In this document: in pieces, positions 4,055-23,155 of the stretch
Layout: every line of letters begins with the position of its first letter
Numbering within the stretch: position 1 is the first letter of the stretch
Origin: Bacteroidales bacterium
Lineage (GTDB): Bacteria > Bacteroidota > Bacteroidia > Bacteroidales > JAADGE01
Assembly (NCBI GenBank): GCA_029934265.1
Contig: JAOZMN010000001.1
Coordinates: 1-32,795 of the forward strand
DNA: 32,795 nucleotides
Direction: 5' to 3'
Program-made: the position numbers and the translations under genes
Notes under the pieces: generated by a model
Database searches by the model: none
The model's input: only the letters and a program-made list of their open reading frames with translations
Told to the model about the DNA's origin: nothing

Positions 4055-4097
4055 GGTACTTTATACGTTTCATCAAAGAAAGTTTGTTATTTTGTCG

Positions 4098-4161
4098 GCT
4101 CAAACTTGCCGAAAGAAGAGTTAAAACCTATTAAACAAATTCTTCTTCCGACGGTTTGAGC
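4098..4161 (-). promoter_or_regulatory. Long imperfect stem-loop between the FecR stop and the TonB-receptor start
   Basis: GCTCAAACTTGCCGAAAGAAGA (4098-4119) pairs with TCTTCTTCCGACGGTTTGAGC (4141-4161). The stem is about 20 bp with a few mismatches around a ~21-nt loop. Confidence 0.4.
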
Positions 4162-4169
4162 TAATATAA

Positions 4170-6478: not shown

Positions 6479-8053
6479 TCAAATAAGTTTTCCTTTTTCG
6501 GGATAATCTATATTATAATGCAGTCCTCTGCTTTCTTTTCTTTTTGCAGCCATTTCGATTATCAGATATGCGACATTAATGGCATTGCGAAGGCGACAAA
6601 TTTTAAATGAAACTTTAGATTTATTATACTGTTTTTCGGTTTCTCGGTTTAAAATTTCAAGTCGAGACATCGCTCTTTTTAAACGCAAATTAGAACGAAC
6701 AATTCCCACATAATTAGACATTATTTGTTGTAACTCTTTAAATTCTTGAGTTATAAGTATCATTTCTTCCAAATCGTTTGTCCCTTCGTCGTTCCAATTA
6801 GGTATTTCATTATTGATTTTTATTTTACCGATTTTTTTGGCGGAAATTTTTGCCGAAATATTTGCATATACAACAGCTTCGAGTAATGAATTGGACGCAA
6901 GACGATTAGCACCATGCAAACCGGTAGCGGCAACCTCTCCGCCGGCATACAGATTTTTAATGGAAGTTCGACCTTTTTTATTAACTTTTATCCCTCCGCA
7001 GAGGTAATGTGCAGCAGGAACAACAGGAATATAATCTTTTGTAATGTCAATACCTGTTTCAAGACATTTTTTGTAAATATTCGGAAAATGTCCCTCTAAA
7101 TCTTCTTTACTTATATTTGTACAATCCAAATAAACGTATTCCGAACCGGAAATTTTCATTTCGTTATCTATCGCTCTGGCAACAATATCACGAGATGCAA
7201 GTTCTTTGCGAACATCATATTTTTGCATGAAACATTTTCCGTCGAAAGTAAGCAACTTTGCACCGAAACCTCTTATGGCTTCCGTAATAAGAAACGAAGG
7301 ACGTTCTTTTAAATTGTACAAAGCCGTTGGGTGAAATTGTACAAATTCCATATTTTCAATAATGCCTTTTGCCCTGTAAACCATAGCAATACCGTCGCCG
7401 GTAGCAATTTCCGGATTCGTGGTGGTATGATAAATATTTCCTATTCCGCCGGTGGCAATATAAGTAATTTTTGAAAGGATTGTATCAATTTCATTGGTCT
7501 TATTATTAAGGACATAAGCACCGTAACATTCAATTTTTGTTTTTTCTCTAATCACTGCATATCCCATTTGATGTTGTGTCAATAGGTCTATTGCAAAATG
7601 ATTTTCCAATATTTCAATATTCGGACAGCTTTTAATTTTTTCGACAAGTGCTCTTTGTATTTCAAATCCGGTCTTATCTTTATAATGTAATATTCTGTTT
7701 TCTGAATGCCCACCCTCTTTGGCAAGGTCAAAATCACCATCAGGTTTTGTGTCGAATTTAGTACCGTATTCTATCAATTTTTCCACCATTTCTCGACCTT
7801 CAGAAACAACCATTTCGACAACGTCTTTATTACAAAGTCCATCGCCGGCTTTCAGCGTGTCTTCTATGTGTTTCTTTTTTGAATCCGGTTTGTATGTTAC
7901 GGTTGCGATACCGCCCTGTGCATAATTTGTGTTGGTGTCGTCTATTTTTGATTTTGTAACCAAACACACTTTCCCGAATTTTGCAACTTTCAGTGCATAC
8001 ATCAAGCCGGCAATTCCGGAACCTATTACAAGAAAATCAGTTTCTTTACTCAT
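6479..8053 (-). CDS. nadB: L-aspartate oxidase
   Basis: 524 aa. FAD-binding N-terminus DFLVIGSGIAGL, then ...YAQGGIA..., HPTAL, RxxxGLHGANRLASNSLLE, which is the fumarate-reductase/NadB family pattern. nadC is nearby. Confidence 0.9.
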   Translation of the reverse strand: MSKETDFLVIGSGIAGLMYALKVAKFGKVCLVTKSKIDDTNTNYAQGGIATVTYKPDSKKKHIEDTLKAGDGLCNKDVVEMVVSEGREMVEKLIEYGTKFDTKPDGDFDLAKEGGHSENRILHYKDKTGFEIQRALVEKIKSCPNIEILENHFAIDLLTQHQMGYAVIREKTKIECYGAYVLNNKTNEIDTILSKITYIATGGIGNIYHTTTNPEIATGDGIAMVYRAKGIIENMEFVQFHPTALYNLKERPSFLITEAIRGFGAKLLTFDGKCFMQKYDVRKELASRDIVARAIDNEMKISGSEYVYLDCTNISKEDLEGHFPNIYKKCLETGIDITKDYIPVVPAAHYLCGGIKVNKKGRTSIKNLYAGGEVAATGLHGANRLASNSLLEAVVYANISAKISAKKIGKIKINNEIPNWNDEGTNDLEEMILITQEFKELQQIMSNYVGIVRSNLRLKRAMSRLEILNRETEKQYNKSKVSFKICRLRNAINVAYLIIEMAAKRKESRGLHYNIDYPEKGKLI

Positions 8054-8350
8054 TAATTTATAAAATTATGAATTTGCGAAATTTTCAAGTCGCAAATGTA
8101 ATTACTATATTTATAAATTAAGAAGTTTTAGCATGAAAATCAAAAAATATGAAGTTTTGTCATAGTATTATTATGTATGCAGTTATAATGTCATATTTTT
8201 ATAAAACGGCATAAGTATTGATAAGAAATAATTTTAAAATAAAACTATATTGCAGACAATATCAAACTTAAATTTCATATTAACGTAATGTTTTAAAAAT
8301 TAATAAATTCCGGAAATTTAAAACTTCACAAATTAAAGTACATATACAAA

Positions 8351-8941
8351 ATGGAAACTGTCGAGATAAAATCATATCAAAATCTTATAGAAAATATCAA
8401 TAACAACGAAAAATCGTTTGCATTGCTTTACAAAAAAGAATCCGAGCAAAGCGAATGCGCTTTAAGTAATTTTAACAAAGCGGCTTCCGAAAATAAAGAA
8501 GTCGGAAAATATACGGTAAACGTTGCCAAAGTTCGAGATATTCACGGAGAATTTTCAATAAAAAGTGTACCTGTTTTATTATATTTTGAGAAAAGTGAAT
8601 TTAAAAATGTAATAAAAGGTTGCAATGATGCCTCTTTTTATCTTAATTTGTTCAATGAAAATTTGTACAGTTCAAAAACGACAAATTCAGACGAGAAGAA
8701 ACAGCCGAAAGTGATTTTATATTCAACACCTTCGTGTTCATGGTGTACTCGAATTAAAAATTATTTTAAAGAACAGAATATCAAATTCAGAAATATAGAC
8801 GTTTCAAAAGACGAAAAAGCGGCAGCAGAAATGGTAAAAAGAAGCGGACAGCAAGGTGTACCGCAAACTTTAATAGGAGGAAAAATAATTGTCGGTTTCG
8901 ATAAAAATAAAATTGATAATTTACTCGGAATCAGAAGTTAA
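8351..8941 (+). CDS. Two-domain thioredoxin-fold protein: degenerate Trx-like N-domain plus glutaredoxin-like (CSWC) C-domain
   Basis: The C-terminal ~80 aa, KVILYSTPSCSWCTRIKNYFKEQNIKFRNIDVSKD...GVPQTLIGGKIIVGF, match the glutaredoxin/NrdH-like pattern. The N-domain has a Trx-like layout (VPVLLYF) but no CxxC. Confidence 0.6.
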   Translation: METVEIKSYQNLIENINNNEKSFALLYKKESEQSECALSNFNKAASENKEVGKYTVNVAKVRDIHGEFSIKSVPVLLYFEKSEFKNVIKGCNDASFYLNLFNENLYSSKTTNSDEKKQPKVILYSTPSCSWCTRIKNYFKEQNIKFRNIDVSKDEKAAAEMVKRSGQQGVPQTLIGGKIIVGFDKNKIDNLLGIRS

Positions 8942-8999
8942 AGTATTTAATCTGTTTATTTATGTTCAACGATTTTTAAATTATTAAAATTATATAAAA

Positions 9000-9287
9000 A
9001 TGAAAGAATTACAACCATTAAACGAGAATGTTCTTCTTAAAATTGAAGAAGAAAAAGGCGAACAAAAAACTGCAAGCGGAATTATCATTCCCGGAACGGC
9101 GGTTGAAAAAAACAATATTGCACAAGTTGTTGCAATCGGTAATATCGAAGATTGTGCAGTATCAATCGGCGATAATGTTCTTTACAAAGAATATTCCGGT
9201 AAGGAAGTAAAATTTGAAGGCGAAAAATTTCTTTTCGTACCTTACGAAGATTTACTTGCCAAAATCGTAGAAACCGATGCAATCTAA
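9000..9287 (+). CDS. groES: Co-chaperonin GroES (no groEL downstream)
   Basis: 95 aa. LQPLNENVLLKIEEEKGEQKTASGIIIPGTAVEKNNIAQVVAIG...GDNVLYKEYSGKEVKFEGEKFLFVPYEDLLAKI matches the Cpn10 pattern. Confidence 0.85.
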   Translation: MKELQPLNENVLLKIEEEKGEQKTASGIIIPGTAVEKNNIAQVVAIGNIEDCAVSIGDNVLYKEYSGKEVKFEGEKFLFVPYEDLLAKIVETDAI

Positions 9288-12868: not shown

Positions 12869-15800
12869 TTAATATTCATCACTGCTTTTTATCGACAATT
12901 CATTAATATCTATTTTAATAAACGAATAAATAAAAGCACTTGCTAATCGTGCGTTTGTAATCAGCGGAACATTAAAATCTATCGCACTTCGGCGAATAGT
13001 GTAATCGTTGTTTAATTCTCCTTCGCTCAGGTTTTTGGGGATATTCACGACAAAATCCACAATTTTATTTTTGATTAATTCCAAACAGTTCGGAGTTTTA
13101 TTTTCATCGGGCCAATATGCTGTTTTTACTTCGATATTATTTTCACGCAAAAAATTAGCCGTGCCGGGAGTTGCATAAAGTTCAAGACCTTTTTCCTGCA
13201 TCATTCTACTGCTGTTTATCAACTCCATTTTGGAACGCACCGGACCGGTGGAAAGCAAAACGCCTTTTTTAGGAATTTTATAACCTACCGACAGCATGGC
13301 TTTAAGAATTGCATCGTAATAACTGTCTCCAATACAGCCGACTTCGCCGGTGGAAGACATATCGACACCCAAAACAGGGTCGGCTTTTGCCAAGCGTGAA
13401 AATGAAAATTGAGAGGCTTTTATCCCGATATGGTCTAAATCGAAAATAGATTTTTGCGGAATTTCATAATCAACTTCAAGCATTACTTTTGTTGCAAGTT
13501 CTATTAAGTTTGTTTTCAGGACTTTCGACACAAAAGGCATACTTCGAGATGCTCTTACATTACACTCGATAACTTTAATATCGTTGTCTTTTGCAAGAAA
13601 TTGCATATTAAAAGGACCGCTTATTTGCAATGCTTGGGCAATTTGTTTTCCGATTTTTTTAATTCTTCTTATCGTTTCAAAATACAATTTTTGAGGCGGA
13701 AACACCATAGTTGCATCACCGGAATGAACGCCGGCAAATTCGATATGCTCCGAAAGTGCATAAGTTATCATTTTTCCCTTATCGGAAACAGCATCAATCT
13801 CAATTTCTTTAGCATTTTCGATAAATTCGCTTACAACTACCGGATATTGTTTTGAAACTTTTGCCGCCATCAGCAAAAAATGTTCTAATTCCGATTTATT
13901 GGAAACCACGTTCATAGCCGCACCGGAAAGCACGTAAGACGGTCGGACAAGTACCGGGAATCCGACTTCTTCCACGAAAACGTTTATGTCTTCTATGCTC
14001 GTGAGTTCCTTCCATCGAGGCTGGTCGATATTGAGCCGGTCGAGCATTGCAGAAAATTTTTGTCTGTTTTCTGCTCCGTCTATATTTTCGGGTGAAGTTC
14101 CGAGTATTTTAATTCCTTGTGTGTGAAGACGTACCGATAAATTGTTAGGTATCTGACCGCCCACCGAAACTATAACTCCTTTGGGATTTTCGAGTTCTAT
14201 AATATCCAAAACTCGTTCGAGTGTTAATTCATCAAAATATAATAAATCACATACATCGTAGTCGGTGCTTACGGTTTCGGGATTGTAATTTATTACTATC
14301 GAGCGGTAGCCCGATTTATTTACTGTGTTCAAAGCATTTACCGTACACCAGTCAAACTCTACACTGCTGCCAATTCGATACGCACCCGAACCAAGCACTA
14401 CAACAGATTTTCCGTCATTTGCAAATTCTACATCATGCTCAGTTCCGGAATAAGTAAGATACAAATAATTTGTTTGTGCAGGGTATTCTGCCGCAAGTGT
14501 ATCTATCTGTTTTACAAAGGGTAATATGTTTTTTGATTTTCGATATTTTCTTACTTTCAATAAACTTTCGGAAATATCGTTTTCATCGGATTTCAACACA
14601 AAACGAGCTATCTGAAAATCAGAAAAACCTCTTATTTTGGCTTCTTTAAGAAGTTCTGTATGTAGATTTTCAATTTTATTGAAAGAAATAAGTTTTGTAT
14701 GAATATCGAAAATATTTTTCAGTTTTTCGAGAAACCAACGGTCGATTTTTGTAAGCTCGTAAATTTGTTCTACCGTATAGCCTTCGTTAAAAGCGTTTGC
14801 GATAGAAAAAATACGCATATCGGTCGGATTTGTCAATTCTTTTTCAACATCTGCAAAGTCCAAATCTCTGTTTCCTACGAAGCCGTGCATTCCTTGCCCT
14901 ATCATTCGCAAGCCTTTTTGTATTGCCTCTTCAAAGTTTTTTCCGATAGCCATAACTTCGCCTACGCTTTTCATACTGCTTCCTATTTCTTTGGAAACTC
15001 CGTTGAATTTATTCAAATCCCAACGAGGAATTTTACAGACAACATAATCGAGTGCCGGCTCAAAAAACGCCGGTGTAGTTTTCGTTACCGAGTTTTTAAT
15101 TTGATGAAGTCCGTAACCCAAACCAAGTTTTGCGGCAACAAAAGCAAGCGGATAACCTGTTGCCTTAGAAGCCAATGCACTTGAGCGTGAAAGTCTTGCA
15201 TTAACTTCAATAACTCTGTAATCTTCAGAATACGGGTCGAGAGCATACTGCACATTGCACTCTCCGACAACGCCAAGCCTGCGAATAATTTTTATCGCCA
15301 ATGCTCTAAGTTTATGATATTCACTGTTTGTAAGAGTTTGCGAAGGAGCTATAACTATACTTTCGCCTGTATGTATTCCGAGCGGATCGAAATTTTCCAT
15401 ATTACAGACTGTTATACAATTATCGTATTTGTCTCTGACAACTTCGTATTCTACTTCTTTCCAGCCTTTTATGGACTCTTCTACAATTATTTGATTTGAA
15501 AAAGAAAGTGCATTTGCCGCCGTTTTTTCTAATTCGTCATCATTGTTACAAAAACCGCTTCCTTGTCCGCCAAGCGTAAATGCTGCACGGATTATAAGCG
15601 GATAGCCAAGTTTGCCGGCGGCTTTTCTTGCATCTTCGATATTTGTAACAGCAATACTTTGCGGTGTTTTTACATCAATTTCTCTAAGGATATTTGCAAA
15701 AACTTCACGGTCTTCGGTATCCATAATGGTTTGCACAGGCGTTCCGAGAACTTCGATTTTATATTTATCGAAAATGCCGGTTTGATACAATTCTACTCCG

Positions 15801-16114
15801 CAATTTAAAGCGGTCTGACCGCCGAAAGCAAGTAAAATTCCTTCCGGTTTTTCTTTTTTGATGACTTCTTCAACAAAATGCGGTGTTACCGGCAGAAAAT
15901 AAACTTTATCGGCAATGTCTTCGCTTGTCTGCACCGTTGCAATATTCGGATTTATAAGAACGGTTTTTATACCTTCTTCTTTTAAGGCTTTCAAAGCCTG
16001 CGAACCTGAATAATCAAACTCTCCGGCTTCACCGATTTTTAAAGCTCCGGAGCCTAATATTAATACTTTTTTCGGAAGATTTTTTAATGTGGATTTATAT
16101 GTTGAGTTTTTCAT
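12869..16114 (-). CDS. carB: Carbamoyl-phosphate synthase large subunit
   Basis: 1081 aa with duplicated ATP-grasp halves (ILGSGALKIGEAGEFDYSGSQA... and VLGSGAYRIGSSVEFDWC...) and an MGS-like C-terminal domain. Confidence 0.95.
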   Translation of the reverse strand: MKNSTYKSTLKNLPKKVLILGSGALKIGEAGEFDYSGSQALKALKEEGIKTVLINPNIATVQTSEDIADKVYFLPVTPHFVEEVIKKEKPEGILLAFGGQTALNCGVELYQTGIFDKYKIEVLGTPVQTIMDTEDREVFANILREIDVKTPQSIAVTNIEDARKAAGKLGYPLIIRAAFTLGGQGSGFCNNDDELEKTAANALSFSNQIIVEESIKGWKEVEYEVVRDKYDNCITVCNMENFDPLGIHTGESIVIAPSQTLTNSEYHKLRALAIKIIRRLGVVGECNVQYALDPYSEDYRVIEVNARLSRSSALASKATGYPLAFVAAKLGLGYGLHQIKNSVTKTTPAFFEPALDYVVCKIPRWDLNKFNGVSKEIGSSMKSVGEVMAIGKNFEEAIQKGLRMIGQGMHGFVGNRDLDFADVEKELTNPTDMRIFSIANAFNEGYTVEQIYELTKIDRWFLEKLKNIFDIHTKLISFNKIENLHTELLKEAKIRGFSDFQIARFVLKSDENDISESLLKVRKYRKSKNILPFVKQIDTLAAEYPAQTNYLYLTYSGTEHDVEFANDGKSVVVLGSGAYRIGSSVEFDWCTVNALNTVNKSGYRSIVINYNPETVSTDYDVCDLLYFDELTLERVLDIIELENPKGVIVSVGGQIPNNLSVRLHTQGIKILGTSPENIDGAENRQKFSAMLDRLNIDQPRWKELTSIEDINVFVEEVGFPVLVRPSYVLSGAAMNVVSNKSELEHFLLMAAKVSKQYPVVVSEFIENAKEIEIDAVSDKGKMITYALSEHIEFAGVHSGDATMVFPPQKLYFETIRRIKKIGKQIAQALQISGPFNMQFLAKDNDIKVIECNVRASRSMPFVSKVLKTNLIELATKVMLEVDYEIPQKSIFDLDHIGIKASQFSFSRLAKADPVLGVDMSSTGEVGCIGDSYYDAILKAMLSVGYKIPKKGVLLSTGPVRSKMELINSSRMMQEKGLELYATPGTANFLRENNIEVKTAYWPDENKTPNCLELIKNKIVDFVVNIPKNLSEGELNNDYTIRRSAIDFNVPLITNARLASAFIYSFIKIDINELSIKSSDEY

Positions 16115-16182
16115 TTTTCTATATTTTAAAATTTCAGGTTTACAATGTATTTAACTGATAAAACGTAGATACATAAAGGAAA

Positions 16183-16800
16183 TTAGATTGTTATACTTTT
16201 ATTAATTTGTTCAATTATGTCATCTCTTACTATTTTTAATCTTTTCTTACTGTTAGTTTCACTTCCTTCTGGTAATTCATTATTTTTTATACTGTTTAAA
16301 CCTTGTGGTCCTAAATGTCTTCTTATTCTAATAAATTTAGCATTAATACTTAATTTTTCTTCAATAAGCCCAGCTTTATTTCCAAAAAGTATTACATATT
16401 GGTTAATATCTTTGAGTTCATTATATAATCGTTTAATATTACCACGAGCTTCAATGTCTTTATTGCTTGCTTCACTTTTGTTATCTCTATCTCTATATAA
16501 AGGTTTCGGATAAGCATTTGTTATTCTATACTTATACCTGTTAATTCTAAGCTTGTTCTCTTGACTTATATTAGGACTTTCAGGAAAAAGTTTATTTTTG
16601 GGACTTTCTAATAATTTGATTAATTCTTCCAAGTTTGCTCCAGTATCACCGACAACAGGCTTGTTATCTCCATTATACAATTCGAGTCTTCCGGGTGCAC
16701 TAAATACAAAAGCGACTTCCTTGTATTCACCCTCATTGTAATAACAGCAATTTTTTCTTATTGGTTCTTTCATAATACTTGATTTAATTTTATATTCCAT
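16183..16800 (-). CDS. Divergent uracil-DNA-glycosylase-superfamily protein (family-4-like motifs, no Fe-S cysteines)
   Basis: AFVFSAPGRLELYNGDNKPVVGDTGANLEELIKLL versus the family-4 pattern GEAPGxxEDxxGxPFVGxAGxLL. YRITNAYPKP versus ITNxVKCRPP. YVILFGNKAG versus the central LG strand. RRHLGPQGLN versus HPSPL-type motif B. The internal ATG at 16773 overlaps the upstream stop as ATGA and may be the real start (196 aa). Confidence 0.6.
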   Translation of the reverse strand: MEYKIKSSIMKEPIRKNCCYYNEGEYKEVAFVFSAPGRLELYNGDNKPVVGDTGANLEELIKLLESPKNKLFPESPNISQENKLRINRYKYRITNAYPKPLYRDRDNKSEASNKDIEARGNIKRLYNELKDINQYVILFGNKAGLIEEKLSINAKFIRIRRHLGPQGLNSIKNNELPEGSETNSKKRLKIVRDDIIEQINKSITI

Positions 16801-17186
16801 TCTGTTAGTTCAAATCCATATTTATTAAATAAATTTAATTCTACAGGTGTTAATAAAATAATAATTTCTCTGTATGTAGCCATAAATATTTTTTTATTAT
16901 CAGCTTGAATAATAAAAGCAGGACAAGTAAATTCATTTATCAATGTATCTTTCCAGTCTTTTTCAATAATATTGTAGATGTAGTCATTAAATTTATAATG
17001 ATAACACAAATACATTTCTTTTTCAGTTACTAAGAATGGTTTTTGAGATATAGATGTTTTATAGGATTTTATATTTCCAAAAATGGAATTGTCAAATGTT
17101 GATTTTGTTATATCTATTTCTCTTGTTGGTATCATATCGACTACGATTATTTCATCACCTGTGTTTTTAATATAGGCAATAAACAT
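16770..17186 (-). CDS. Hypothetical protein with no recognisable family (upstream partner of the UDG-like gene)
   Basis: The ORF spans 16770-17225 from a TTG; the first ATG is at 17186 (MFIAYIKNTGDEIIVVD...). It is on the same strand as carA/carB. Its stop TGA (16770-16772) overlaps an in-frame ATG of the next gene. No motif recognised. Confidence 0.5.
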   Translation of the reverse strand: MFIAYIKNTGDEIIVVDMIPTREIDITKSTFDNSIFGNIKSYKTSISQKPFLVTEKEMYLCYHYKFNDYIYNIIEKDWKDTLINEFTCPAFIIQADNKKIFMATYREIIILLTPVELNLFNKYGFELTEWNIKLNQVL

Positions 17187-17251
17187 ATTCCAAACTTTTT
17201 CAATATCTAAGCCGGAAAAAAACAAATTTTCTGATATGTAATATTTTTTAT

Positions 17252-18337
17252 TTATTTTTTATTTTTTTCTACCATTTCAATAAAATCATCAAACAAAAAC
17301 ATTGTATCTGTCGGACCTCCGGTTGCTTCGGGGTGAAATTGTGTTGAAAAAAACGGTTTTGTTTTATGTTTCATTCCTTCGTTTGTATCATCGTTCAGAT
17401 TTACAAACAACGGTTGCCAATCTTCGGAAAGTGTATCGTTGTCGATAGCAAAACCGTGGTTTTGAGAACTGATATACGCTTTATTCGTATTGCAAAGCAA
17501 AACCGGCTGATTATGACTTCGATGTCCGTATTTAAGTTTGTAGCTTTTTGCTCCCGAAGCCAATGCCATAAGCTGATTGCCAAGACAAATTCCGAAAATA
17601 GGTGTATCTTTTTCTATCACTTTCGATAAATTATTTATGGTTGCTTCGCATTTTACAGGGTCGCCGGGACCGTTGGTTATAAAAAGTCCGTCATATTCTT
17701 CTTTTGTAAAATCATAATCCCAGGGAACACGTATTACTGTTGAATTTCTTGCAGTTAATTCTCTTATAATGTTGTTCTTAACACCACAATCGACAAGCAT
17801 TATTTTATTTTTGCCTGTTCCGTAAGTTATAATTTCTTTTGTGCTGACTTGTGCTACAAGATTATCTTTATTAGGGTCATAAAAATCGGTATCCTGTTCG
17901 TTTACAATGATTTTGCCAAGCATTGTACCTTTTTCACGCAGTATTTTTGTTAAAGCTCTTGTATCTATAGCATAAATTCCGGGTATTTTGTTGGTTTTAA
18001 GCCAATTATCAAGACTTTCATTTGCGTTCCAATGGCTGTATTCATACGAATAGTCGGAAATAACCAAGCCTGATATTTGTATTTTATCGGATTCAAAATC
18101 GGTAAGAAGTTTATCTTCTGTTTTTTTCTTGGGAATACCGTAGTTGCCTATAAGCGGATAAGTCGCCACAAGTATCTGACCTTTATAAGAGGGGTCTGTA
18201 AGACTTTCCGGATAGCCTGTCATTGCGGTATTAAATACAACTTCGCCGGCGGAGCTTCCTGCATATCCAAATGATTTTCCCTTTAAAATAGTTCCGTCTT
18301 CAAGGACTAATTTTGCTGTTTTATTCATGCTTTTCAT
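17252..18337 (-). CDS. carA: Carbamoyl-phosphate synthase small (glutamine amidotransferase) subunit
   Basis: 361 aa. LVLEDGTILKGKSFG, FNTAMTGYPESLTDPSY, GICLGNQL (catalytic Cys), FSTQFHPEA. Confidence 0.95.
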   Translation of the reverse strand: MKSMNKTAKLVLEDGTILKGKSFGYAGSSAGEVVFNTAMTGYPESLTDPSYKGQILVATYPLIGNYGIPKKKTEDKLLTDFESDKIQISGLVISDYSYEYSHWNANESLDNWLKTNKIPGIYAIDTRALTKILREKGTMLGKIIVNEQDTDFYDPNKDNLVAQVSTKEIITYGTGKNKIMLVDCGVKNNIIRELTARNSTVIRVPWDYDFTKEEYDGLFITNGPGDPVKCEATINNLSKVIEKDTPIFGICLGNQLMALASGAKSYKLKYGHRSHNQPVLLCNTNKAYISSQNHGFAIDNDTLSEDWQPLFVNLNDDTNEGMKHKTKPFFSTQFHPEATGGPTDTMFLFDDFIEMVEKNKK

Positions 18338-18556
18338 TTTTTCTGCAAAGATAAAAATAACAATGAATAAAATGAATATCTTTTAAAATTTATGTATAAT
18401 TATTCAAAAAATATATAAATACATGGTTGGCTTATTTATAACTTCACAACCTAACAGACTGTAATCACTGACAAATAATAAAATTATCACAACACCGACA
18501 CTATGTATAATTATACAGTCATTTTACCTGTATCAAAAAAATATTATACTTTGTAT

Positions 18557-18687
18557 GAGTTCAGTCTAAAAAGTAGATTTTCTCGAAATCAGACCCTTAG
18601 GGTTTTAAGTAATAAGCTATAAATCAAATATTTAGATTTGTTAAATTTTATTAAATCAAACCCTAAGGGTCTTTTTATACCGAACTC
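18557..18687 (+). mobile_element. Family A MITE-like element, copy 6
   Basis: Exactly 131 bp. A perfect 6-bp direct repeat TTGTAT lies at 18551-18556 and 18688-18693. Confidence 0.9.
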
Positions 18688-19112: not shown

Positions 19113-21362
19113 ATGAAAACCAACAGACGAGAATTTATTAAAATATCATCAATGGGAATGGGAGCTTTAGCCTTAGCAACAACACCTGTTCTTGGTTGGG
19201 TACCCGGTTTTTTAAAAGATGACTACACAAATCCGGACGATTCAAAAGCAAAGCGTTATGCAAACTATTGTGAAGTATGCTTTTGGAATTGTGCAGGTTG
19301 GGTATATACCGATGAAAAAGATAAAATTTGGAAAATAATCGGTAACGAAGACGACCCTCACAGCAACGGACGTTTTTGCCCTCGAGGAACCGGCGGAGTG
19401 GGAATGTATAACGACAACGACCGACTTAAAACTCCGCTTAAACGTGTAACAGACGAATCCGGCAAACAAACTTTCGTTAAAATTTCTTGGGAAGAAGCAT
19501 TTGATACCATTGCAGAAAAAATGACCGAAATTAAAGATAATTACGGTTCTGAAAGTTTTGCATTATTCAAACACGGTTCAAGCGGTAAACATTTTGCACA
19601 ACTATTAAAGGCTTACGGTTCCAAAAACATTGCAGCTCCGGCTTATGCTCAATGTAAAGGTCCCAGAGAAGAAGCATTTAAAGTTACATTCGGGCACCCG
19701 CTTCACTCACCCGAACCTCTCGACATCAGAGATACAAAATGTTTAGTACTTATAGGCTCTCATCTTGGCGAAAATATGCACAACGGACAAGTTCAAGAAA
19801 TGTCCGAAGCTATTGGGAAAGGTGTAAATATTATTACGGTTGACCCTCGTTTTTCAACTGTTGCAAGCAAATCTAAATTTTGGTTACCGATAAAACCGGC
19901 AACTGACCTTGCATTATTATTGGCTTGGATACACGTAATAATAAATGAAGAAATATACGACCAAAAATATGTCGAAAAATATACTTTCGGATTAGAATCG
20001 CTGAAAAAACACGTTGAAAATTACACTCCGGAATGGGCTGCGGGAATTACAACGCTTTCGGCACAAGACATAAGAGATACTGCCAAAGAAATGGCAAACG
20101 CTTCTCCGGCAGTAATAGTACATCCGGGACGACACGTTACTTGGTACGGAGATGACACCCAACGTTTGAGAGCCGTTGCAATACTTAACGCTTTACTTGG
20201 TTCGTGGGGACGAAGAGGCGGATTTTTCATGCCGGAAAAAGCAAAATTACCTAAATATCCCGAACCCAAAGCTCCAAAACCAAAATGGTCTTGGAGAGAC
20301 ATTTCTCCCGGTAAATATCCACTTGCAGGAACCGGTGTTACAAACTTATTAATAGACGCTTCGCACCCGGATTACGAAGGAGACCATAAAATAAAAGCAT
20401 GGTTTATAGCCGGAACAAATTTAATCGCAAGTATTCCGGATATAAAAAGAACACTTGATGCTCTTAATAATCAAGAATTTGTAGTAGTCGTAGATACAAT
20501 GCCGGCTGAAATAACCGGTTATGCAGATATAGTTCTGCCGGAATGTACATATCTTGAAAGATATGACAGTCCGAGACTTGCACAACACAGAGAGCCGAAT
20601 ATTGCTCTTCGAGTTCCTGCCGCCGAACCACGATTTGATTCAAAACCGGGCTGGTGGATATGCAAAGAAATTGCAACAAGAATAGGAAAAGGAGACTTTT
20701 TCGATTATAAAGACTTTTCGGAAGTTATCGACTGGCAACTCAAACAAGTAGGCACATCTCTTGAAGAGATGAAAAAAATCGGAGTTAAAAAATTAAACAG
20801 AAAATATGACGATTTATATTTCCTTGAAGATGAAGAAATAGAATTTCATACAAATACAGGAAAAATAGAATTGTATTCAACAACAATGGAAGCAAACGGT
20901 TTCGACCCGATGCCAAAATATACAGCACATCAAGAATCTTCGGAAGGATTTTACAGATTGATATACGGAAGGACGCCGGCTCATACTTTCAGCAGAACAA
21001 CCAACAACCCTAACTTAACAGCACTTAAAGCCGAAAACGATTTATGGGTAAATCCGAAAGTTGCATCGGAATGGGGTTTTAAAAACGGACAAAAACTTTG
21101 GTTACAAAATCATCAAGGTAAAGTTTCCGAGTTTCCGATAAAAATCAGAATAACCGAAAGAATACGTTGGGACTCAGTATTTACCGCTCACGGTTTCGGA
21201 CGAACCGACAAAAGACTCACAAGAGGATACGGGCGAGGAATAAGTGATTCGGAAATGGTATCCGATGTAAAAATAGATAAGGAAACAGGAAGTACGGGAA
21301 TGAGAAATAATTTTGTTACATTTCTGACAGAAAAACCGAATACAGCAAAAAAAGAAAGCTAA
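19113..21362 (+). CDS. Tat-exported molybdopterin oxidoreductase catalytic subunit, PsrA/PhsA (polysulfide/thiosulfate reductase)-like
   Basis: 749 aa. Twin-arginine signal NRREFIKISSMGMGALALA. N-terminal Fe-S motif CEVCFWNCAG...(x27)...CPRG. Bis-MGD family architecture. DmsB-type and NrfD-type subunits follow. Substrate is not determinable from sequence. Confidence 0.8.
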   Translation: MKTNRREFIKISSMGMGALALATTPVLGWVPGFLKDDYTNPDDSKAKRYANYCEVCFWNCAGWVYTDEKDKIWKIIGNEDDPHSNGRFCPRGTGGVGMYNDNDRLKTPLKRVTDESGKQTFVKISWEEAFDTIAEKMTEIKDNYGSESFALFKHGSSGKHFAQLLKAYGSKNIAAPAYAQCKGPREEAFKVTFGHPLHSPEPLDIRDTKCLVLIGSHLGENMHNGQVQEMSEAIGKGVNIITVDPRFSTVASKSKFWLPIKPATDLALLLAWIHVIINEEIYDQKYVEKYTFGLESLKKHVENYTPEWAAGITTLSAQDIRDTAKEMANASPAVIVHPGRHVTWYGDDTQRLRAVAILNALLGSWGRRGGFFMPEKAKLPKYPEPKAPKPKWSWRDISPGKYPLAGTGVTNLLIDASHPDYEGDHKIKAWFIAGTNLIASIPDIKRTLDALNNQEFVVVVDTMPAEITGYADIVLPECTYLERYDSPRLAQHREPNIALRVPAAEPRFDSKPGWWICKEIATRIGKGDFFDYKDFSEVIDWQLKQVGTSLEEMKKIGVKKLNRKYDDLYFLEDEEIEFHTNTGKIELYSTTMEANGFDPMPKYTAHQESSEGFYRLIYGRTPAHTFSRTTNNPNLTALKAENDLWVNPKVASEWGFKNGQKLWLQNHQGKVSEFPIKIRITERIRWDSVFTAHGFGRTDKRLTRGYGRGISDSEMVSDVKIDKETGSTGMRNNFVTFLTEKPNTAKKES

Positions 21363-21460
21363 GGTCTTCGACCTGTTTAATATTGCTTACACACTCGTGC
21401 AAATATTTATAAATAAGTAAATGTATATTTTTTTTGTAAGAGTACTTTTTCAAAAATTCC
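21360..21460 (+). repeat. Family B intercistronic element, copy B2
   Basis: It starts with the psrA-like stop codon: TAAGGTCTTCGACCTGTTTAATATTGC...GTGCAAAT...AATAAGTAAATGTATATTTTTTTTGTAAGAGTACTT. The first 27 nt are nearly identical to B1. Confidence 0.7.
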
Positions 21461-21513
21461 TTAAAGTGAATTAAAAAAAAGCAGAAGTCGATTAATTCAA
21501 AATTTAGAATAAT

Positions 21514-22047
21514 ATGAGATACGGAATGGCAATAGATACAAGAAAATGCGTTGGTTGTGCAGACTGCGTAGTGGCTTGTCAGACTGAAAACAATATACCC
21601 ATAGGCTACACCAGAGATTGGATAGCGGAACTTAATGAAGGCACATATCCGAATCTTCATCTCGAAATACGCTCCGAACGATGTAACCATTGCGAAAACA
21701 CCCCTTGTGTACGAACCTGCCCTACCGGAGCAAGTCATATCATTTTGGGAGGTATAGTAAAAGTTACACATGAAGAATGTATCGGTTGCGGGGCGTGTAT
21801 TCAGTCATGTCCTTACGATGCCAGATATATGCACCCCGATGGTTATGTCGATAAATGTACATTCTGCGACCACAGAGTTGCAAACGGACAAGAACCGGCC
21901 TGCGTATCGGTCTGCCCGACACATTGTATGTATTTCGGTGATTTAGACGACCCAAACAGTGAAGTCTCAAAAGTTGTTGCTGCAAATAAAATAAAAACTC
22001 TGGCTCCGGAAGCCGGAACAAAACCTCAAATTTTTTATTTGGTATAA
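21514..22047 (+). CDS. 4Fe-4S dicluster electron-transfer subunit (PsrB/DmsB type, four cluster motifs)
   Basis: 177 aa. CVGCADCVVAC, CNHCENTPCVRTCP, CIGCGACIQSCP, CTFCDHRV...ACVSVCP. Confidence 0.85.
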   Translation: MRYGMAIDTRKCVGCADCVVACQTENNIPIGYTRDWIAELNEGTYPNLHLEIRSERCNHCENTPCVRTCPTGASHIILGGIVKVTHEECIGCGACIQSCPYDARYMHPDGYVDKCTFCDHRVANGQEPACVSVCPTHCMYFGDLDDPNSEVSKVVAANKIKTLAPEAGTKPQIFYLV

Positions 22048-22135
22048 GCACAAGAACTTACGAAATTTTATATTTTTTCGATTTAATAAAAACATTTCGG
22101 CGTAAGCCGGTTATCAATTATCAATTTATATCGTT

Positions 22136-23155
22136 ATGAGAGAAGAATTAATAACAAGTGGCAGAATGAACTTGAATATCGACCCTGTTTTGCACATTTG
22201 GCACTGGCAAATCCCTGTATATTTATTTCTTGGCGGTCTTGCGGCAGGTTTACTTTTTTTTGCGGCATACTATACAATAATAGGAAAAGAAAAAAAATTC
22301 ACTACAGCCGTAAAATTTGCTCCGGTATTAGCTCCGGTAGCAATTATTCTCGGACTTATAGCACTTTTACTCGACCTTAAACACCCTGCGTATTTCTGGC
22401 AACTATATACAACAGTGCATTTAGAATCTCCGATGTCATGGGGTGCTTGGGTACTAATGTTTATAATGCCTATATCTATGTTGTGGGTAGCTTCTTATTT
22501 TAAAGAAATTTTCCCTAAATTCGATATAAACCAAAATATCGTAGGGAAAATGCTGAAAAAAGTAATCGTTAAAAATGACAATAAAGAAGGTGCAAACTGG
22601 GACTGGAAATTTGAAATTATACGAAAATTTGAAATTAATTTCATCAAAAACAGAAAACCGGTAGCATGGGTAATGCTTATTCTTGCAGTAATTCTCGGAG
22701 TTTATACCGGAATATTACTTTCGGCATTTAATGCACGACCGTTATGGAACTCTTCAATACTCGGACCATTATTTTTAACTTCCGGACTTTCAACTGCGGC
22801 GGCAACAATTATGTGGATGTCCGATAATCACGAAGAAAAACGTACTTTCAGCAAAATAGATTTAATGCTTATTGTAATTGAACTGTTTTTAATAACACAC
22901 TTATTTATGGGATTCTTAGCAGGTTCAGAAGCAAAAGTACAAGCCGCTCAATATTTTCTCGGAGGTGAATTTACCGTTACTTTTTGGATAAATGTTGTAA
23001 TTATCGGTTTGATAGTTCCTGCAATACTTGAAACACTTGAACTTTTAAAATTCAAATTACCGGTAATGGTACCTGCTGCAATGATATTATGGGGTGGCAT
23101 GATATTCCGCTTTATAATGGTAGAAGCCGGACAAGTAACTCGTTTTCTATATTAA
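22136..23155 (+). CDS. NrfD/PsrC-type integral-membrane quinol-interacting subunit
   Basis: 339 aa with about 8-9 hydrophobic helices. It has the WxWxIPxYLFLGG-like opening (WHWQIPVYLFLGGLAAG) typical of the NrfD family, and follows the A and B subunits. Confidence 0.8.
   Translation: MREELITSGRMNLNIDPVLHIWHWQIPVYLFLGGLAAGLLFFAAYYTIIGKEKKFTTAVKFAPVLAPVAIILGLIALLLDLKHPAYFWQLYTTVHLESPMSWGAWVLMFIMPISMLWVASYFKEIFPKFDINQNIVGKMLKKVIVKNDNKEGANWDWKFEIIRKFEINFIKNRKPVAWVMLILAVILGVYTGILLSAFNARPLWNSSILGPLFLTSGLSTAAATIMWMSDNHEEKRTFSKIDLMLIVIELFLITHLFMGFLAGSEAKVQAAQYFLGGEFTVTFWINVVIIGLIVPAILETLELLKFKLPVMVPAAMILWGGMIFRFIMVEAGQVTRFLY

What the first reader, a model, noticed from the sequence alone, without database searches (positions are those of the whole stretch)
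16183..16800. Divergent UDG-superfamily protein: candidate modified-base glycosylase (Brig1-like defence?)
The 196-205 aa product keeps the order and spacing of family-4 uracil-DNA-glycosylase motifs. These are SAPG...E...G..P.VG.TG.NLEELIKLL (motif A region), YRITNAYPKP (ITNxVKCRPP region), YVILFGNKAG, and RRHLGPQGLN (motif B, His-containing loop). It differs in three ways. The acidic residue before APG is Ser. The four Fe-S cysteines of family 4 are absent, the only cysteines being an N-terminal CC pair. There is a long basic/acidic insertion after the ITN motif. The UDG superfamily includes members repurposed for antiphage defence; Brig1 excises glucosyl-hydroxymethylcytosine from phage DNA. 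A divergent UDG on a foreign cassette is therefore a plausible defence or toxin glycosylase rather than a housekeeping Ung. An alternative link is that carAB feeds pyrimidine synthesis, so a uracil-related role cannot be excluded.
Basis: partly seen in the sequence, partly recalled or inferred. Interest (0 to 1): 0.8.

Follow-up and report, generated by a model that had tools for sequence, protein, structure and literature searches.

The report
Mobile iron-free UDG-like glycosylase gene
The gene is real and encodes a divergent uracil-DNA-glycosylase-fold enzyme from a small, uncharacterised, horizontally mobile family that landed between two housekeeping genes; it may be an anti-phage or mobile-element enzyme, but it is not a relative of Brig1 and its target base is untested.

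Summary
The ORF at 16183-16800 (-) is real. Its likely start is the ATG at 16773, giving 196 aa.

**What it is.** The protein has the UDG fold. Its closest relatives are family-4 UDG and UdgX, but only remotely. It belongs to a discrete family of about 600 sequence clusters that no curated model names.

**Family signature:**
- [F/L]-S-x-P-G-x-x-E
- P-[VAI]-x-G-x-T-G-x-N-L
- Y-R-I-T-N
- N-x-x-R
- G-x-K-A
- H-[LT]-[GS]
- no conserved cysteines

**Mapping onto T. thermophilus UDGa.** The family keeps the uracil-reading Asn (N95), the thymine-gating Glu (E40) and the leaving-group His (H162). The motif-1 Gly-Glu becomes Phe-Ser, and the stacking Phe becomes Val. This favours a uracil-type substrate over glucosyl-hmC.

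**Relation to named defence enzymes.** Profile comparison with Brig1 is negative. Brig2 could not be compared.

**Origin.** The gene and an orphan 151-aa ORF, joined by an ATGA overlap, form an AT-rich 1.1-kb insertion. About 65 relatives have carB directly after carA at this junction.

**Family context.** Members are sporadic, have no constant partner gene, and often sit beside CRISPR, Gabija-like, STAND, AIPR or plasmid/conjugation genes. Some are fused to nuclease-like or defence-type domains.

**Verdict.** An accessory, conflict-associated glycosylase is likely. A defence role is plausible but unproven.

The parts
16183..16800 (-). UDG-superfamily glycosylase-like ORF (205 aa from the first ATG)
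   Evidence: ORF listing. Homologues at E<=2.5e-31. UDG fold by AlphaFold2 plus Foldseek. Pfam UDG hit in 9 of 11 family members.
16183..16773 (-). Probable true coding sequence (196 aa). Its ATG at 16773-16771 overlaps the TGA stop of ORF151 as ATGA.
   Evidence: Sequence read directly. Family alignments start only around residue 16-20.
16681..16704 (-). Motif 1: F33-S34-A35-P36-G37-R38-L39-E40. It corresponds to G40-E41-G42-P43-G44-x-x-E47 of T. thermophilus UDGa.
   Evidence: HMM and hhalign alignments. Conservation is S 135/139, P 135, G 137, E 136. Residue roles are taken from PMC5387724 and PMC9796141.
16639..16659 (-). P48-V-V-G-D-T-G54 loop. V49 takes the place of the uracil-stacking F54 of family 4.
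   Evidence: Alignments. Conservation is G51 135/139, T53 135, G54 137; position 49 is V/A/C/I/L and never aromatic in the top counts.
16516..16530 (-). Y91-R-I-T-N95. N95 corresponds to N80 of T. thermophilus UDGa, which reads N3 and O4 of uracil.
   Evidence: hhalign. N95 is invariant, 139/139. Role from PMC5387724.
16429..16440 (-). N121-I-K-R124, a family-specific invariant pair of unknown role
   Evidence: N 137/139 and R 138/139. It lies at the start of helix 119-129 in the model.
16372..16383 (-). G140-N-K-A143 at the end of a core beta strand
   Evidence: G 138/139, K/R 126/139, A 124/139. Strand 135-139 in the model.
16294..16317 (-). Motif 2: H162-L-G-P-Q-G-L-N169. H162 is the presumed leaving-group His (H155 of T. 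thermophilus UDGa).
   Evidence: H 137/139 and L168 108/139. The correspondence is inferred from motif order and fold match, not from a residue-level alignment.
16770..17225 (-). ORF151: an orphan upstream ORF (151 aa from TTG, or 138 aa from the ATG at 17186), mildly acidic (pI about 5), translationally coupled to the glycosylase gene
   Evidence: ORF listing and sequence. No homologue among 5.8 billion proteins or in any family locus. No Pfam, NCBIfam or meaningful PADLOC hit. The AlphaFold2 single-sequence model is unusable, pLDDT 32. pI.
16115..17251 (.). 1,137-nt AT-rich insertion between the carA stop and the carB start. It carries ORF151 and the glycosylase gene.
   Evidence: carB follows carA directly (reading-frame gap no more than about 80 nt) in about 65 relatives. 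None has either inserted gene. GC is 0.23-0.28 and GC3 0.17, against GC3 0.29-0.32 in carA and carB. No terminator-like site was found in the scanned region, 15900-18600.
17252..18337 (-). carA (carbamoyl-phosphate synthase small subunit), upstream flank
   Evidence: ORF translation. 58-72% identical homologues are each followed by carB.
12869..16114 (-). carB (carbamoyl-phosphate synthase large subunit), downstream flank
   Evidence: ORF translation. tblastn identity of 64-83% in relatives for full-length matches of the 350-aa probe.

Best explanation
The ORF encodes a monofunctional DNA glycosylase. It belongs to an unnamed clade of the UDG superfamily that resembles family-4 UDG but has no Fe-S cluster.

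**Inferred mechanism**
- The enzyme flips a pyrimidine out of DNA into a pocket.
- The pocket is lined by motif 1 (F33-S34-x-P36-G37), E40, V49, N95 and H162.
- N95 reads the N3-H/O4 edge of a uracil-type base.
- The S34 backbone and H162 contact O2, and H162 stabilises the leaving base.
- E40 limits what fits at position 5.
- The family-4 stacking Phe is replaced by a small aliphatic residue.
- The most likely substrate is therefore uracil or a close uracil/thymine analogue. The product would be an abasic site.

**Shown here**
- The fold.
- The existence of the family.
- The conserved residues and their correspondence to family 4 up to N95.
- The absence of conserved cysteines.
- The gene arrived, with an orphan and translationally coupled ORF, as an AT-rich insertion into an otherwise conserved carA-carB junction.
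- The family is sporadic, has no constant partner, and often lies in defence islands or on plasmid and conjugative elements. Some members are fused to nuclease-like or defence-type domains.

**Inferred only**
- Catalytic activity.
- The substrate.
- The biological role, which I take to be conflict-related: restricting phage or foreign DNA that carries a non-canonical pyrimidine, or serving a mobile element. I do not think it is core repair.
For: **Fold and family**
- AlphaFold2 model: pLDDT 81, pTM 0.82.
- Foldseek against PDB: UdgX and family-4 UDG first, then TDG and MUG.
- Pfam UDG hit in 9 of 11 members.
- NCBIfam family-4 models are weakly hit by 26 of 60 members, best 1e-6, far below their cut-offs.
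- The family is discrete, with 628 clusters.

**Active site**
- Correspondences are S34/E41, E40/E47, V49/F54 and N95/N80.
- Residue roles come from mutational work on T. thermophilus UDGa and on DR0022.
- These residues are 97-100% conserved across 139 members, and no column has more than 49% Cys.

**Insertion**
-; the ATGA overlap is seen.

**Accessory, conflict-type context**
- Only 19 loci were found among 185,579 species genomes, across Bacteroidota, Actinomycetota and several proteobacterial orders.
- Cas3 lies next to L013, and WYL next to L014.
- A GajA-like gene lies in L017 and an IetA-like AAA ATPase in L014.
- STAND plus SLFN/AlbA_2 genes lie in L004.
- AIPR, WYL and AAA genes lie in L033.
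- TnsA, Dam methyltransferase and NOV_C genes lie in L009.
- KfrA lies next to the gene in L007 and L026.
- A PD-Lambda-3_A-like/UDG fusion sits beside the relaxase and T4SS genes of a conjugative element.
- One member has a BnzA-like N-terminal fusion.
- For scale, Getz et al. report mobile-element genes in 41-42% of 20-kb windows around defence glycosylases, against 2-8% around Fpg, EndoIII, UNG and MutY and below 0.1% around Tag and AlkA.
Against: - No activity has been measured for any member.
- Motif 1 lacks both the universal Gly and the family-4 Glu, and the stacking Phe is lost, so catalysis could be weak or the substrate unexpected.
- The H162 correspondence rests on motif order and fold, not on a residue-level alignment.
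- The window itself shows only housekeeping genes among the 12 ORFs I scanned or read; about 15 other ORFs of at least 100 aa were not scanned.
- Several family loci are also housekeeping (L001; L029).
- My count of defence or mobile neighbours (about 9-11 of 24 loci within three genes) has no matched background. It uses crude ORF calls in GC-rich DNA.
- No member was found in IMG/VR, INPHARED or PLSDB. The plasmid link therefore rests on a few metagenomic and draft contigs.
Confidence: 0.5

Rival explanations
1. It is an ordinary accessory repair enzyme: a back-up uracil or deaminated-base DNA glycosylase with no role in phage or plasmid conflicts. It happens to be spread by horizontal transfer.
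For: - The uracil-recognition residues of family 4 are retained (N95, E40, H162).
- Bacteria often carry several UDG paralogues, for example four in D. radiodurans.
- The window and some other loci are housekeeping in character.
- JGI names two members 'uracil-DNA glycosylase'.
Against: - The distribution is very sparse and patchy.
- The gene arrived by insertion with foreign base composition.
- Defence and mobile-element genes recur nearby, and some members carry defence-type fusions.
- Housekeeping glycosylases rarely lie near mobile elements (2-8% or less).
Confidence: 0.3
2. It is a member or functional twin of Brig1, excising glucosyl-hydroxymethylcytosine from T-even-like phage DNA.
For: - Both have the UDG fold, with family-4 UDG as the nearest solved structure.
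- Both are stand-alone proteins lacking Fe-S cysteines.
- Some family members lie in defence islands.
Against: - hhalign of the 60-sequence family profile against the published Brig1 protein gives probability 0.2%. BLASTP gives E=0.36.
- Brig1 has a GLNPG motif, and N145 and E147, which Hossain et al. chose for mutagenesis, lie in LNFELYPWHS. This family has FSxPG and RITN instead.
- The invariant Asn that reads N3-H/O4 argues for a uracil-type base rather than a cytosine-type base.
Confidence: 0.03
3. ORF151 and the glycosylase form a toxin-antitoxin or effector-immunity pair. The glycosylase damages the cell's own DNA unless ORF151 holds it in check.
For: - The small, mildly acidic upstream ORF overlaps the basic (pI 9.4) glycosylase gene by ATGA. 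This is a typical two-gene addiction-module layout.
- Both genes arrived together.
Against: - ORF151 has no homologue anywhere, and none next to any other family member.
- No recurrent partner gene exists in 23 loci.
- The family appears to be mostly stand-alone proteins.
- ORF151 gave no usable model or domain hit.
Confidence: 0.07
4. The UDG fold has been put to another use in this family. Examples are a DNA-binding or sensor module without excision, or a base-exchange or modification enzyme working with partner domains such as radical-SAM/SPASM or methyltransferase.
For: - Motif 1 departs from every characterised family: Phe/Leu-Ser instead of Gly-Glu/Gln/Asn.
- The stacking Phe is lost.
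- Some members are fused to radical-SAM plus SPASM and to a class-I methyltransferase.
- The family has its own invariant N121 and R124, of unknown role.
Against: - The His and Asn needed for excision are essentially invariant.
- Families 2, 3, 5 and 6 also lack an acidic motif-1 residue yet are active (and general knowledge of those families).
- In the listed top 150 hits the stand-alone form outnumbers the fusions.
- The radical-SAM fusion sits in an uninformative context.
Confidence: 0.07
5. The gene has a role linked to carAB and pyrimidine synthesis, as the first reader suggested as an alternative.
For: Only its position and orientation between carA and carB, with no terminator-like site detected.
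Against: - None of about 70 carA-carB loci from relatives carries it.
- None of the other family loci contains carA or carB next to it.
- Other genomes carry unrelated small genes at the same junction. The site looks like a landing pad rather than a functional unit.
Confidence: 0.02

Closest known systems
Family 4 uracil-DNA glycosylase (UDGa; e.g. T. thermophilus 1UI0, S. tokodaii 4ZBX, T. maritima 1VK2)
   Same: - Nearest relatives by sequence profile and, together with UdgX, by fold.
- Same motif order.
- Shared P-G and gating Glu in motif 1, the G-x-x-G loop, the I-T-N Asn, and a motif-2 His.
- Similar size, about 190-205 aa.
   Different: - Motif 1 starts Phe/Leu-Ser instead of Gly-Glu.
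- The stacking Phe is replaced by Val, Ala or Ile.
- There are no Fe-S cysteines.
- There is no K-C-R-P-P-x-N segment, so no clear equivalent of the water-positioning N89.
- Motif 2 reads H-[LT]-[GS] rather than H-P-[SA].
- Scores are about 13 bits against cut-offs of 125-250.
- Distribution is sporadic and linked to mobile elements.
UdgX (M. smegmatis covalent uracil-DNA binding UDG)
   Same: Best Foldseek matches (E about 4e-5, TM 0.55). Its distribution in bacteria is also sporadic (abstract of PMC10776899).
   Different: - No GEQPG motif.
- No R-loop KRRIH or conserved His after the ITN motif.
- UdgX has an Fe-S cluster.
- TIGR03914 is hit weakly by only 4 of 60 members.
DR0022-like 'acid' UDG of Deinococcus radiodurans
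   Same: It is the only described UDG group whose motif 1 does not begin with Gly (it has Leu). This family has Phe or Leu there. Both are family-4-like in the Asn and His motifs.
   Different: DR0022 keeps the Glu (L-E-A-P) and has Ala at the gate position, which allows hmU excision. This family has Ser and keeps the gating Glu.
Brig1 (anti-phage glucosyl-hmC DNA glycosylase; Hossain et al. 2024)
   Same: A stand-alone, Fe-S-free UDG-fold protein that is sporadically distributed. Some relatives lie in defence islands.
   Different: - No detectable sequence or profile similarity.
- Different motifs: GLNPG and LNFELYPWHS against FSxPG and RITN.
- Brig1 acts on a cytosine derivative, whereas this family keeps the uracil-reading Asn.
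Brig2 (integron-borne UDG-like defence enzyme against phages with modified thymidines; Getz et al. 2025 preprint)
   Same: - UDG fold.
- More than 500 homologues in several phyla, including Bacteroidota.
- Found in AT-rich regions of likely recent acquisition.
- About 41% lie near mobile elements or defence genes.
- It targets uracil/thymine-type bases. This is the closest match in lifestyle.
   Different: Unknown. The Brig2 sequence and its homologue list were not retrievable. The six of my eight RefSeq (NZ_) locus accessions that I searched for are absent from the held part of their tables. That check is weak, because the stored file was truncated.

Membership tests
UDG superfamily (Pfam PF03167; alpha/beta UDG fold) | [quoted passage not shown] | tested here: met
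   AlphaFold2 model with pLDDT 81. The top 33 Foldseek PDB hits are all UDG-superfamily proteins (UdgX, family 4, TDG, MUG) at probability 0.93-1.0; TM is 0.53-0.57 for the UdgX and family-4 entries and 0.40-0.48 for TDG and MUG.
UDG superfamily (Pfam PF03167; alpha/beta UDG fold) | Significant match to the Pfam UDG model | tested here: inconclusive
   The window protein itself gives no Pfam hit. However, 9 of 11 close homologues do (best 3e-7), and P0059 passes the gathering score (25.4 against 24.3 bits).
Family 4 UDG (UDGa) | Motif A/1 G-E-[AG]-P-G | tested here: not met
   The motif is F-S-A-P-G. Across the family it is [F/L]-S-[CAV]-P-G, with Ser in 135 of 139.
Family 4 UDG (UDGa) | Four cysteines binding a [4Fe-4S] cluster | tested here: not met
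   Only C18 and C19 are present in this protein. No alignment column has more than 49% Cys across 139 members.
Family 4 UDG (UDGa) | Asn of I-T-N that hydrogen-bonds N3 and O4 of uracil (N80 in T. thermophilus) | tested here: met
   hhalign pairs N95 with N80. N95 is invariant, 139/139.
Family 4 UDG (UDGa) | Motif B/2 His (H-P-[SA]) that stabilises the leaving uracil | tested here: inconclusive
   A His at the expected place is conserved in 137 of 139 members, but within H-[LT]-[GS]. The equivalence is inferred from motif order and fold, not from an alignment.
Family 4 UDG (UDGa) | Aromatic residue stacking on uracil (F54) | tested here: not met
   The aligned position is V49. The family has V, A, C, I or L there.
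Family 4 UDG (UDGa) | Score at or above the curated cut-off of TIGR00758 or NF040953 | tested here: not met
   13.2 and 13.5 bits against cut-offs of 125.3 and 250. The best family member reaches only E about 1e-6.
UdgX | G-E-Q-P-G motif and R-loop K-R-R-I-H with the cross-linking His | tested here: not met
   There is no Glu-Gln in motif 1. No conserved His or basic loop follows ITN. The features are as listed in the abstract of PMC10359453.
Brig1 family | Detectable homology to Brig1 | tested here: not met
   hhalign of A2 against Brig1 gives probability 0.2% and E=0.37. BLASTP gives E=0.36. The Brig1 sequence came from the paper's supplement, which was read by machine and may contain small errors.
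Brig1 family | Excision of alpha-glucosyl-hmC and protection against T-even phages | not testable with these tools
   This needs biochemistry and phage challenge.
Brig1 family | Location in defence islands | tested here: inconclusive
   Not in this window, among the ORFs scanned. Several family loci are in defence or mobile contexts, but no matched background rate was computed.
Brig2 family | Detectable homology to Brig2 | not testable with these tools
   The sequence was not held. The six locus accessions searched are absent from their held tables, which is weak evidence only.
DR0022-like UDG | Motif 1 L-E-A-P with a non-Gly first residue | tested here: not met
   The first residue is non-Gly (F or L), as in DR0022, but Glu is replaced by Ser. 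No direct sequence comparison was possible.

The most novel reading that the evidence does not exclude
This is a third, independent UDG-fold family of stand-alone antiviral or anti-plasmid glycosylases, after Brig1 and Brig2. It derives from family-4 UDG by loss of the Fe-S cluster. It would target uracil-type bases in invading DNA, such as dU, hmU or hypermodified-thymine phage genomes. Being unlike Ung, it might escape Ugi-type inhibitors. In some members the domain is fused to a PD-(D/E)xK-like nuclease domain, which could cut at the abasic sites it creates. Here it would ride with an orphan partner gene into a housekeeping operon.
Probability: 0.3. Interest if true: 0.65.

Novelty: new variant of a known kind. 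Interest (0 to 1): 0.5.

Why it matters
DNA glycosylases have only recently been recognised as anti-phage effectors (Brig1 in 2024; Dag families, Brig2 and Brig3 in 2025-26). Each new family reveals which phage base modifications bacteria can read.

This family has a clear sequence signature and about 600 clusters. Its active site keeps the uracil-reading residues but rebuilds motif 1 and drops the Fe-S cluster. It also shows repeated links to defence islands, plasmids and a conjugative element.

It is small, acts as a single gene, and is easy to test. If it restricts uracil- or modified-thymine-DNA phages, it would add a defined specificity to glycosylase-based immunity and give a new reagent for detecting such bases.

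If it turns out to be plain repair, it would still be a new Fe-S-free branch of the UDG superfamily, of interest for how catalysis works without the motif-1 Gly-Glu pair.

Tried and rejected
1. **Direct family scans of the window protein.** Pfam, PADLOC and NCBIfam gave nothing except weak family-4 hits. phmmer against PDB gave nothing.
2. **Brig1 kinship.** I recovered the sequence from the paper's supplement and compared it. The result was negative.
3. **Brig2 kinship.** The sequence and homologue tables were truncated in the held supplement. Searches for genus names and accession numbers found nothing. This remains unresolved.
4. **ORF151.**
   - No homologues.
   - No copy in any family locus.
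   - The single-sequence AlphaFold2 model was unusable, pLDDT 32.
   - I did not run a fold search on it.
5. **Conserved partner gene.** An all-against-all BLAST of 120 neighbours found only a KfrA pair (L007/L026) and one syntenic pair between related genera (L014/L016).
6. **Phage or plasmid carriage.** No hit in INPHARED or PLSDB with two different members. No hit in IMG/VR either.
8. **Exact-sequence look-up of the window protein's contig.** Not on record.
9. **Rfam and tRNA scans of the window.** Empty.
10. **Flanking repeats or target-site duplications around the insertion.** Only weak AT-rich matches appeared, which I judged to be chance.
11. **Sigma-70 promoter scan.** No more sites than in shuffled sequence, and probably not applicable to a Bacteroidota-like genome. 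No terminators were found.
12. **Literature search by motif strings.** Irrelevant hits only.
13. **N-terminal domain of P0059 against PDB by sequence.** Nothing found.
14. **pVip hits of the radical-SAM fusion.** I judged these to be generic radical-SAM similarity, because the fusion also has a SPASM domain.
Full report

The window contains an ORF at 16183..16800 on the minus strand encoding 205 aa. The only cysteines are C18 and C19.

The ORF lies between carA (17252..18337) and carB (12869..16114), on the same strand. A 151-aa ORF (16770..17225) lies just upstream of it.

Reading the DNA shows that the TGA stop of the 151-aa ORF overlaps an in-frame ATG of the glycosylase gene as ATGA, at 16773-16770. 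The 196-aa form is therefore the likely product, and the two genes look translationally coupled.

The gene is not a chance ORF. It has ten homologues at E from 2.5e-31 to 3.5e-8. A profile built from them finds 628 clusters (E<=1e-3) among 1.84 billion cluster representatives, 516 of them at E<=1e-10.

**2. What fold and family?**

The window protein alone gives nothing in Pfam or PADLOC, and nothing in PDB by sequence. NCBIfam gives only two weak family-4 UDG hits over residues 23-64, at 13 bits against cut-offs of 125 and 250.

Family-level evidence is clear:
- 9 of 11 members hit Pfam UDG PF03167, best E=3e-7.
- The family profile matches family-4 UDG structures in the PDB, 4zbx at E=0.001-0.002.
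- 26 of 60 members weakly hit the NCBIfam family-4 models, best 1e-6.
- An AlphaFold2 model built on the alignment has pLDDT 81 and pTM 0.82.
- Its top 33 Foldseek matches in PDB are all UDG-superfamily proteins. UdgX and family 4 come first (E about 4e-5, probability 1.0, TM about 0.55), followed by TDG and MUG.

The UDG fold is therefore established. Membership of family 4 is not.

The profile retrieves hundreds of clusters rather than the very large family-4 population. This shows that the group is discrete.

**3. The family signature, and what it implies**

I aligned 139 members. The conserved residues are:

| Element | Sequence | Conservation (of 139) |
|---|---|---|
| Motif 1 | [F/L]-S-[CAV]-P-G-x-x-E | S 135, P 135, G 137, E 136 |
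| Loop | [RK]-P-[VAI]-[AS]-G-x-T-G-x-N-L | G51 135, T53 135, G54 137 |
| Motif 3 | R-Y-x-Y-R-I-T-N | N 139 |
| Charged stretch | [RK]-[TS]-E | E 128 |
| Family-specific pair | N-x-x-R | N 137, R 138 |
| Strand end | G-x-K-A | G 138 |
| Motif 2 | H-[LT]-[GS]-x-x-x-L-N | H 137 |

No column has more than 49% Cys. The window protein carries all of the signature residues, so it shows no sign of decay.

I mapped these residues onto T. thermophilus UDGa using HMM and hhalign alignments. I supplied the T. thermophilus sequence from memory. Its numbering agrees with the paper and with the 1ui0 segment printed.

| This protein | T. thermophilus UDGa | Role in UDGa |
|---|---|---|
| F33 | G40 | first residue of motif 1 |
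| S34 | E41 | backbone contacts O2 of uracil |
| P36-G37 | P43-G44 | motif 1 |
| E40 | E47 | blocks thymine from the pocket |
| V49 | F54 | stacks on uracil |
| N95 | N80 | bidentate bonds to N3 and O4 of uracil |

The roles come from mutational work (PMC5387724; PMC9796141). That work also identifies H155 as the residue stabilising the leaving uracilate, and N89 as positioning the water.

The family thus keeps the base reader (Asn), the gate (Glu) and a His at the expected motif-2 place. The His correspondence is inferred from motif order and fold only. The family replaces the Gly-Glu pair and the stacking Phe, and it has no obvious N89 equivalent.

In DR0022, Ala at the gate position allows hmU excision, and changing it to Glu abolishes that activity. 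I infer a uracil-type substrate, possibly plain uracil. The altered stacking residue leaves room for surprises.

The Asn-to-His spacing is 67 residues here against 75 in T. thermophilus UDGa, and the stretch is conserved across the family.

**4. Is it Brig1-like?**

I took the published Brig1 protein sequence from the supplement of Hossain et al. 2024. I compared it with the 60-sequence family profile and with the window protein:
- hhalign gives probability 0.2%.
- BLASTP gives E=0.36.

Brig1 has a GLNPG motif. Its mutated residues N145 and E147 lie in LNFELYPWHS. None of this is shared, so the two are separate branches of the same fold.

Brig3 has an AAG-like fold and is irrelevant here.

Brig2 (Getz et al. 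2025 preprint) is a UDG-like, integron-borne enzyme active against phages with modified thymidines. It has more than 500 homologues in several phyla. These lie in AT-rich, mobile-element-rich contexts. This is the closest match in lifestyle.

The Brig2 sequence and homologue lists were cut from the held supplement. The six of my eight RefSeq (NZ_) locus accessions that I searched for do not occur in what is held. Kinship with Brig2 remains open.

**5. Is it on a foreign cassette?**

Yes. I searched metagenome contigs with the window's CarA and obtained 80 loci with 58-72% identical CarA.
- In about 70 loci with enough downstream sequence, carB follows carA.
- In about 65 of them the two reading frames are no more than roughly 80 nt apart.
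- None contains a relative of the glycosylase or of the 151-aa ORF.

In the window, the distance from the carA stop to the carB start is 1,137 nt.

The insert has GC 0.23-0.28 and third-position GC 0.17. carA and carB have third-position GC of 0.29 and 0.32.

No terminator-like site was detected in the scanned region, 15900-18600. carB is therefore probably transcribed through the insert. This is an inference.

I found no convincing flanking repeats.

Two relatives, L036 and L039, carry an unrelated small four-helix-bundle gene at the same junction. The site seems to tolerate small insertions.

The ORFs I scanned elsewhere in the window are those of an ordinary Bacteroidota-like chromosome:
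- a FecR and STN/CarboxypepD_reg TonB-dependent receptor pair
- Dus, NadB and NadC
- a molybdopterin oxidoreductase with NrfD
- a SpoIIE phosphatase
- a sugar transferase and an epimerase

No defence or mobile-element genes appeared among the 12 ORFs I scanned or read; about 15 other ORFs of at least 100 aa were not scanned.

**6. The 151-aa ORF**

- It has no homologue among 5.8 billion proteins.
- It has none in any locus that holds a family member.
- It has no domain hit.
- Its single-sequence model is unusable, pLDDT 32.
- It is mildly acidic (pI about 5), while the glycosylase is basic (pI 9.4).

A partner role such as inhibitor, immunity protein or regulator cannot be excluded. Nothing supports one beyond the ATGA overlap.

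**7. Where else is the family found?**

A scan of one genome per species (185,579 species) with two strict peptide patterns found 19 loci. They come from:
- Saprospiraceae and Bacteroidales
- several Actinomycetota
- Nitrosomonas
- Rhodanobacter and Dyella
- several Burkholderiales

This is a patchy distribution.

Among 120 neighbours (three genes on each side in 23 loci), no Pfam family recurs more than twice. BLAST finds only two recurring neighbours.

Many neighbourhoods are of the defence or mobile type:

| Locus | Neighbouring genes |
|---|---|
| L013 (Nitrosomonas) | type I-E Cas3 and a UvrD-like helicase |
| L017 (Ramlibacter) | GajA-like gene |
| L014 (Rhodanobacter) | WYL and an IetA-like AAA ATPase |
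| L004 | NB-ARC STAND protein and an SLFN/AlbA_2 protein |
| L033 | AIPR, WYL/WCX and AAA |
| L009 | TnsA-like, Dam methyltransferase, NOV_C and DUF4268 |
| L007 and L026 | KfrA immediately downstream (56% identical); a transposase also in L007 |

Further PADLOC hits (PD-T4-1, PDC-S11) and a Tn3-type transposase domain appear in loci I did not pin down.

Other loci are plainly housekeeping (L001; L029).

Roughly 9-11 of 24 loci have such neighbours within three genes. I have no matched background for this count. Getz et al. report mobile-element genes in 41-42% of 20-kb windows around defence glycosylases. The figures are 2-8% around Fpg, EndoIII, UNG and MutY and below 0.1% around Tag and AlkA.

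No member was found in IMG/VR, INPHARED or PLSDB.

**8. Domain fusions**

In the listed top 150 hits most members are stand-alone proteins of 170-210 aa. Some are fused:
- **P0059 (349 aa).** Its N-terminal domain matches PD-Lambda-3_A at 5e-17. It contains a PD...ExK-like signature (IPDLIIHKRG...IMEFK), which is my reading of the sequence. The gene sits directly upstream of MobC, relaxase, coupling protein and T4SS genes of a conjugative element.
- **P0121 (692 aa).** It has a BnzA-like N-terminus, E=2e-12.
- **P0099, P0105 and P0106 (about 590 aa).** These have an N-terminal radical-SAM plus SPASM module. P0099's cluster has 23 near-identical members on many gut-type contigs, but the context is uninformative.
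- **P0134.** It carries a class-I methyltransferase.

The nuclease-like and defence-type fusions fit a role in attacking foreign DNA. The radical-SAM and methyltransferase fusions keep open a link to base modification.

**9. Best explanation and rivals**

My main reading is an accessory, horizontally mobile, Fe-S-free, family-4-like DNA glycosylase acting on a uracil-type base. Its role would lie in conflicts with phages or other mobile DNA rather than in core repair.

My separate estimates for each step are:
- UDG-fold protein: about 0.95
- active glycosylase: about 0.75
- uracil-type substrate: about 0.55
- conflict or defence role: about 0.4-0.45

Rivals:
- Plain accessory repair UDG: 0.3. 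The uracil-reading residues and some housekeeping contexts favour it. Rarity, the insertion, and the neighbours and fusions count against it.
- Toxin-antitoxin pair with the orphan ORF: 0.07.
- UDG fold put to another use or to a modification role: 0.07.
- Brig1-type hmC enzyme: 0.03.
- Pyrimidine-metabolism role: 0.02.

**10. Novelty and score**

The kind is known: UDG-superfamily glycosylases, some of them defence enzymes. This branch has its own signature, and no curated model or paper that I could find describes it. It may be Brig2's family, or one of the ten untested integron UDG-like clusters of Getz et al.

I rate it a new variant of a known kind, with interest 0.5. A specialist would not be astonished after Brig1 to Brig3 and the Dag enzymes. 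The family is nonetheless well defined, testable with simple assays, and chemically informative.

Noticed in passing
L036:5315-5665 and L039:5127-5543 (loci from the carA scan): Two relatives carry an unrelated small four-helix-bundle gene (the kind known from 23S rRNA intervening sequences). It sits exactly at the carA-carB junction where the window has its two-gene insert. The junction seems to be a recurrent landing site for small genes.
   Followed up: partly
P0059; L114:145-1194, with neighbours to 9194: This protein fuses a PD-Lambda-3_A-like N-terminal domain, carrying a PD...ExK-type signature, to the UDG-like domain. It is encoded directly upstream of MobC, relaxase, coupling protein and T4SS genes of a conjugative element. 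It may pair a glycosylase with a nuclease.
   Followed up: partly
P0099, P0105, P0106; L029:8001-9776: These proteins of about 590 aa have a radical-SAM plus SPASM module fused to the UDG-like domain. P0099's cluster has 23 near-identical members on more than 30 contigs. The context is housekeeping, next to ABC-transporter genes. The function is unexplained.
   Followed up: partly
L007:1116-2935 and L026:501-2232: The UDG-like gene is immediately followed by a kfrA-type plasmid gene (56% identical between the two). One locus is a metagenome contig and the other is from Massilia eurypsychrophila. L007 also carries an rve transposase.
   Followed up: partly
P0121 (692 aa) and P0134 (456 aa): Two further fusions of the UDG-like domain. 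One has a BnzA-like N-terminus plus an RNA-polymerase-alpha-CTD-like helix-hairpin-helix region. The other has a C-terminal class-I methyltransferase.
   Followed up: no
window 16770-17225 (-): The 151-aa ORF coupled to the glycosylase gene has no homologue in any searched collection. It could be a de novo or fast-evolving partner gene, or not a gene at all.
   Followed up: yes
window about 3500-5000 and about 8000-9000: Two further dips in GC, to 0.26-0.28. These are comparable to the dip at the insert and lie around the FecR-like gene and upstream of the 196-aa ORF at 8351-8941.
   Followed up: no
window 19113-23155 (+): A molybdopterin oxidoreductase and an NrfD-type membrane subunit lie in a row. 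This resembles an alternative-complex-III or polysulfide-reductase-type cluster. Together with the FecR/STN-type TonB receptor pair at 1349-5126, it fits a Bacteroidota-like host.
   Followed up: no
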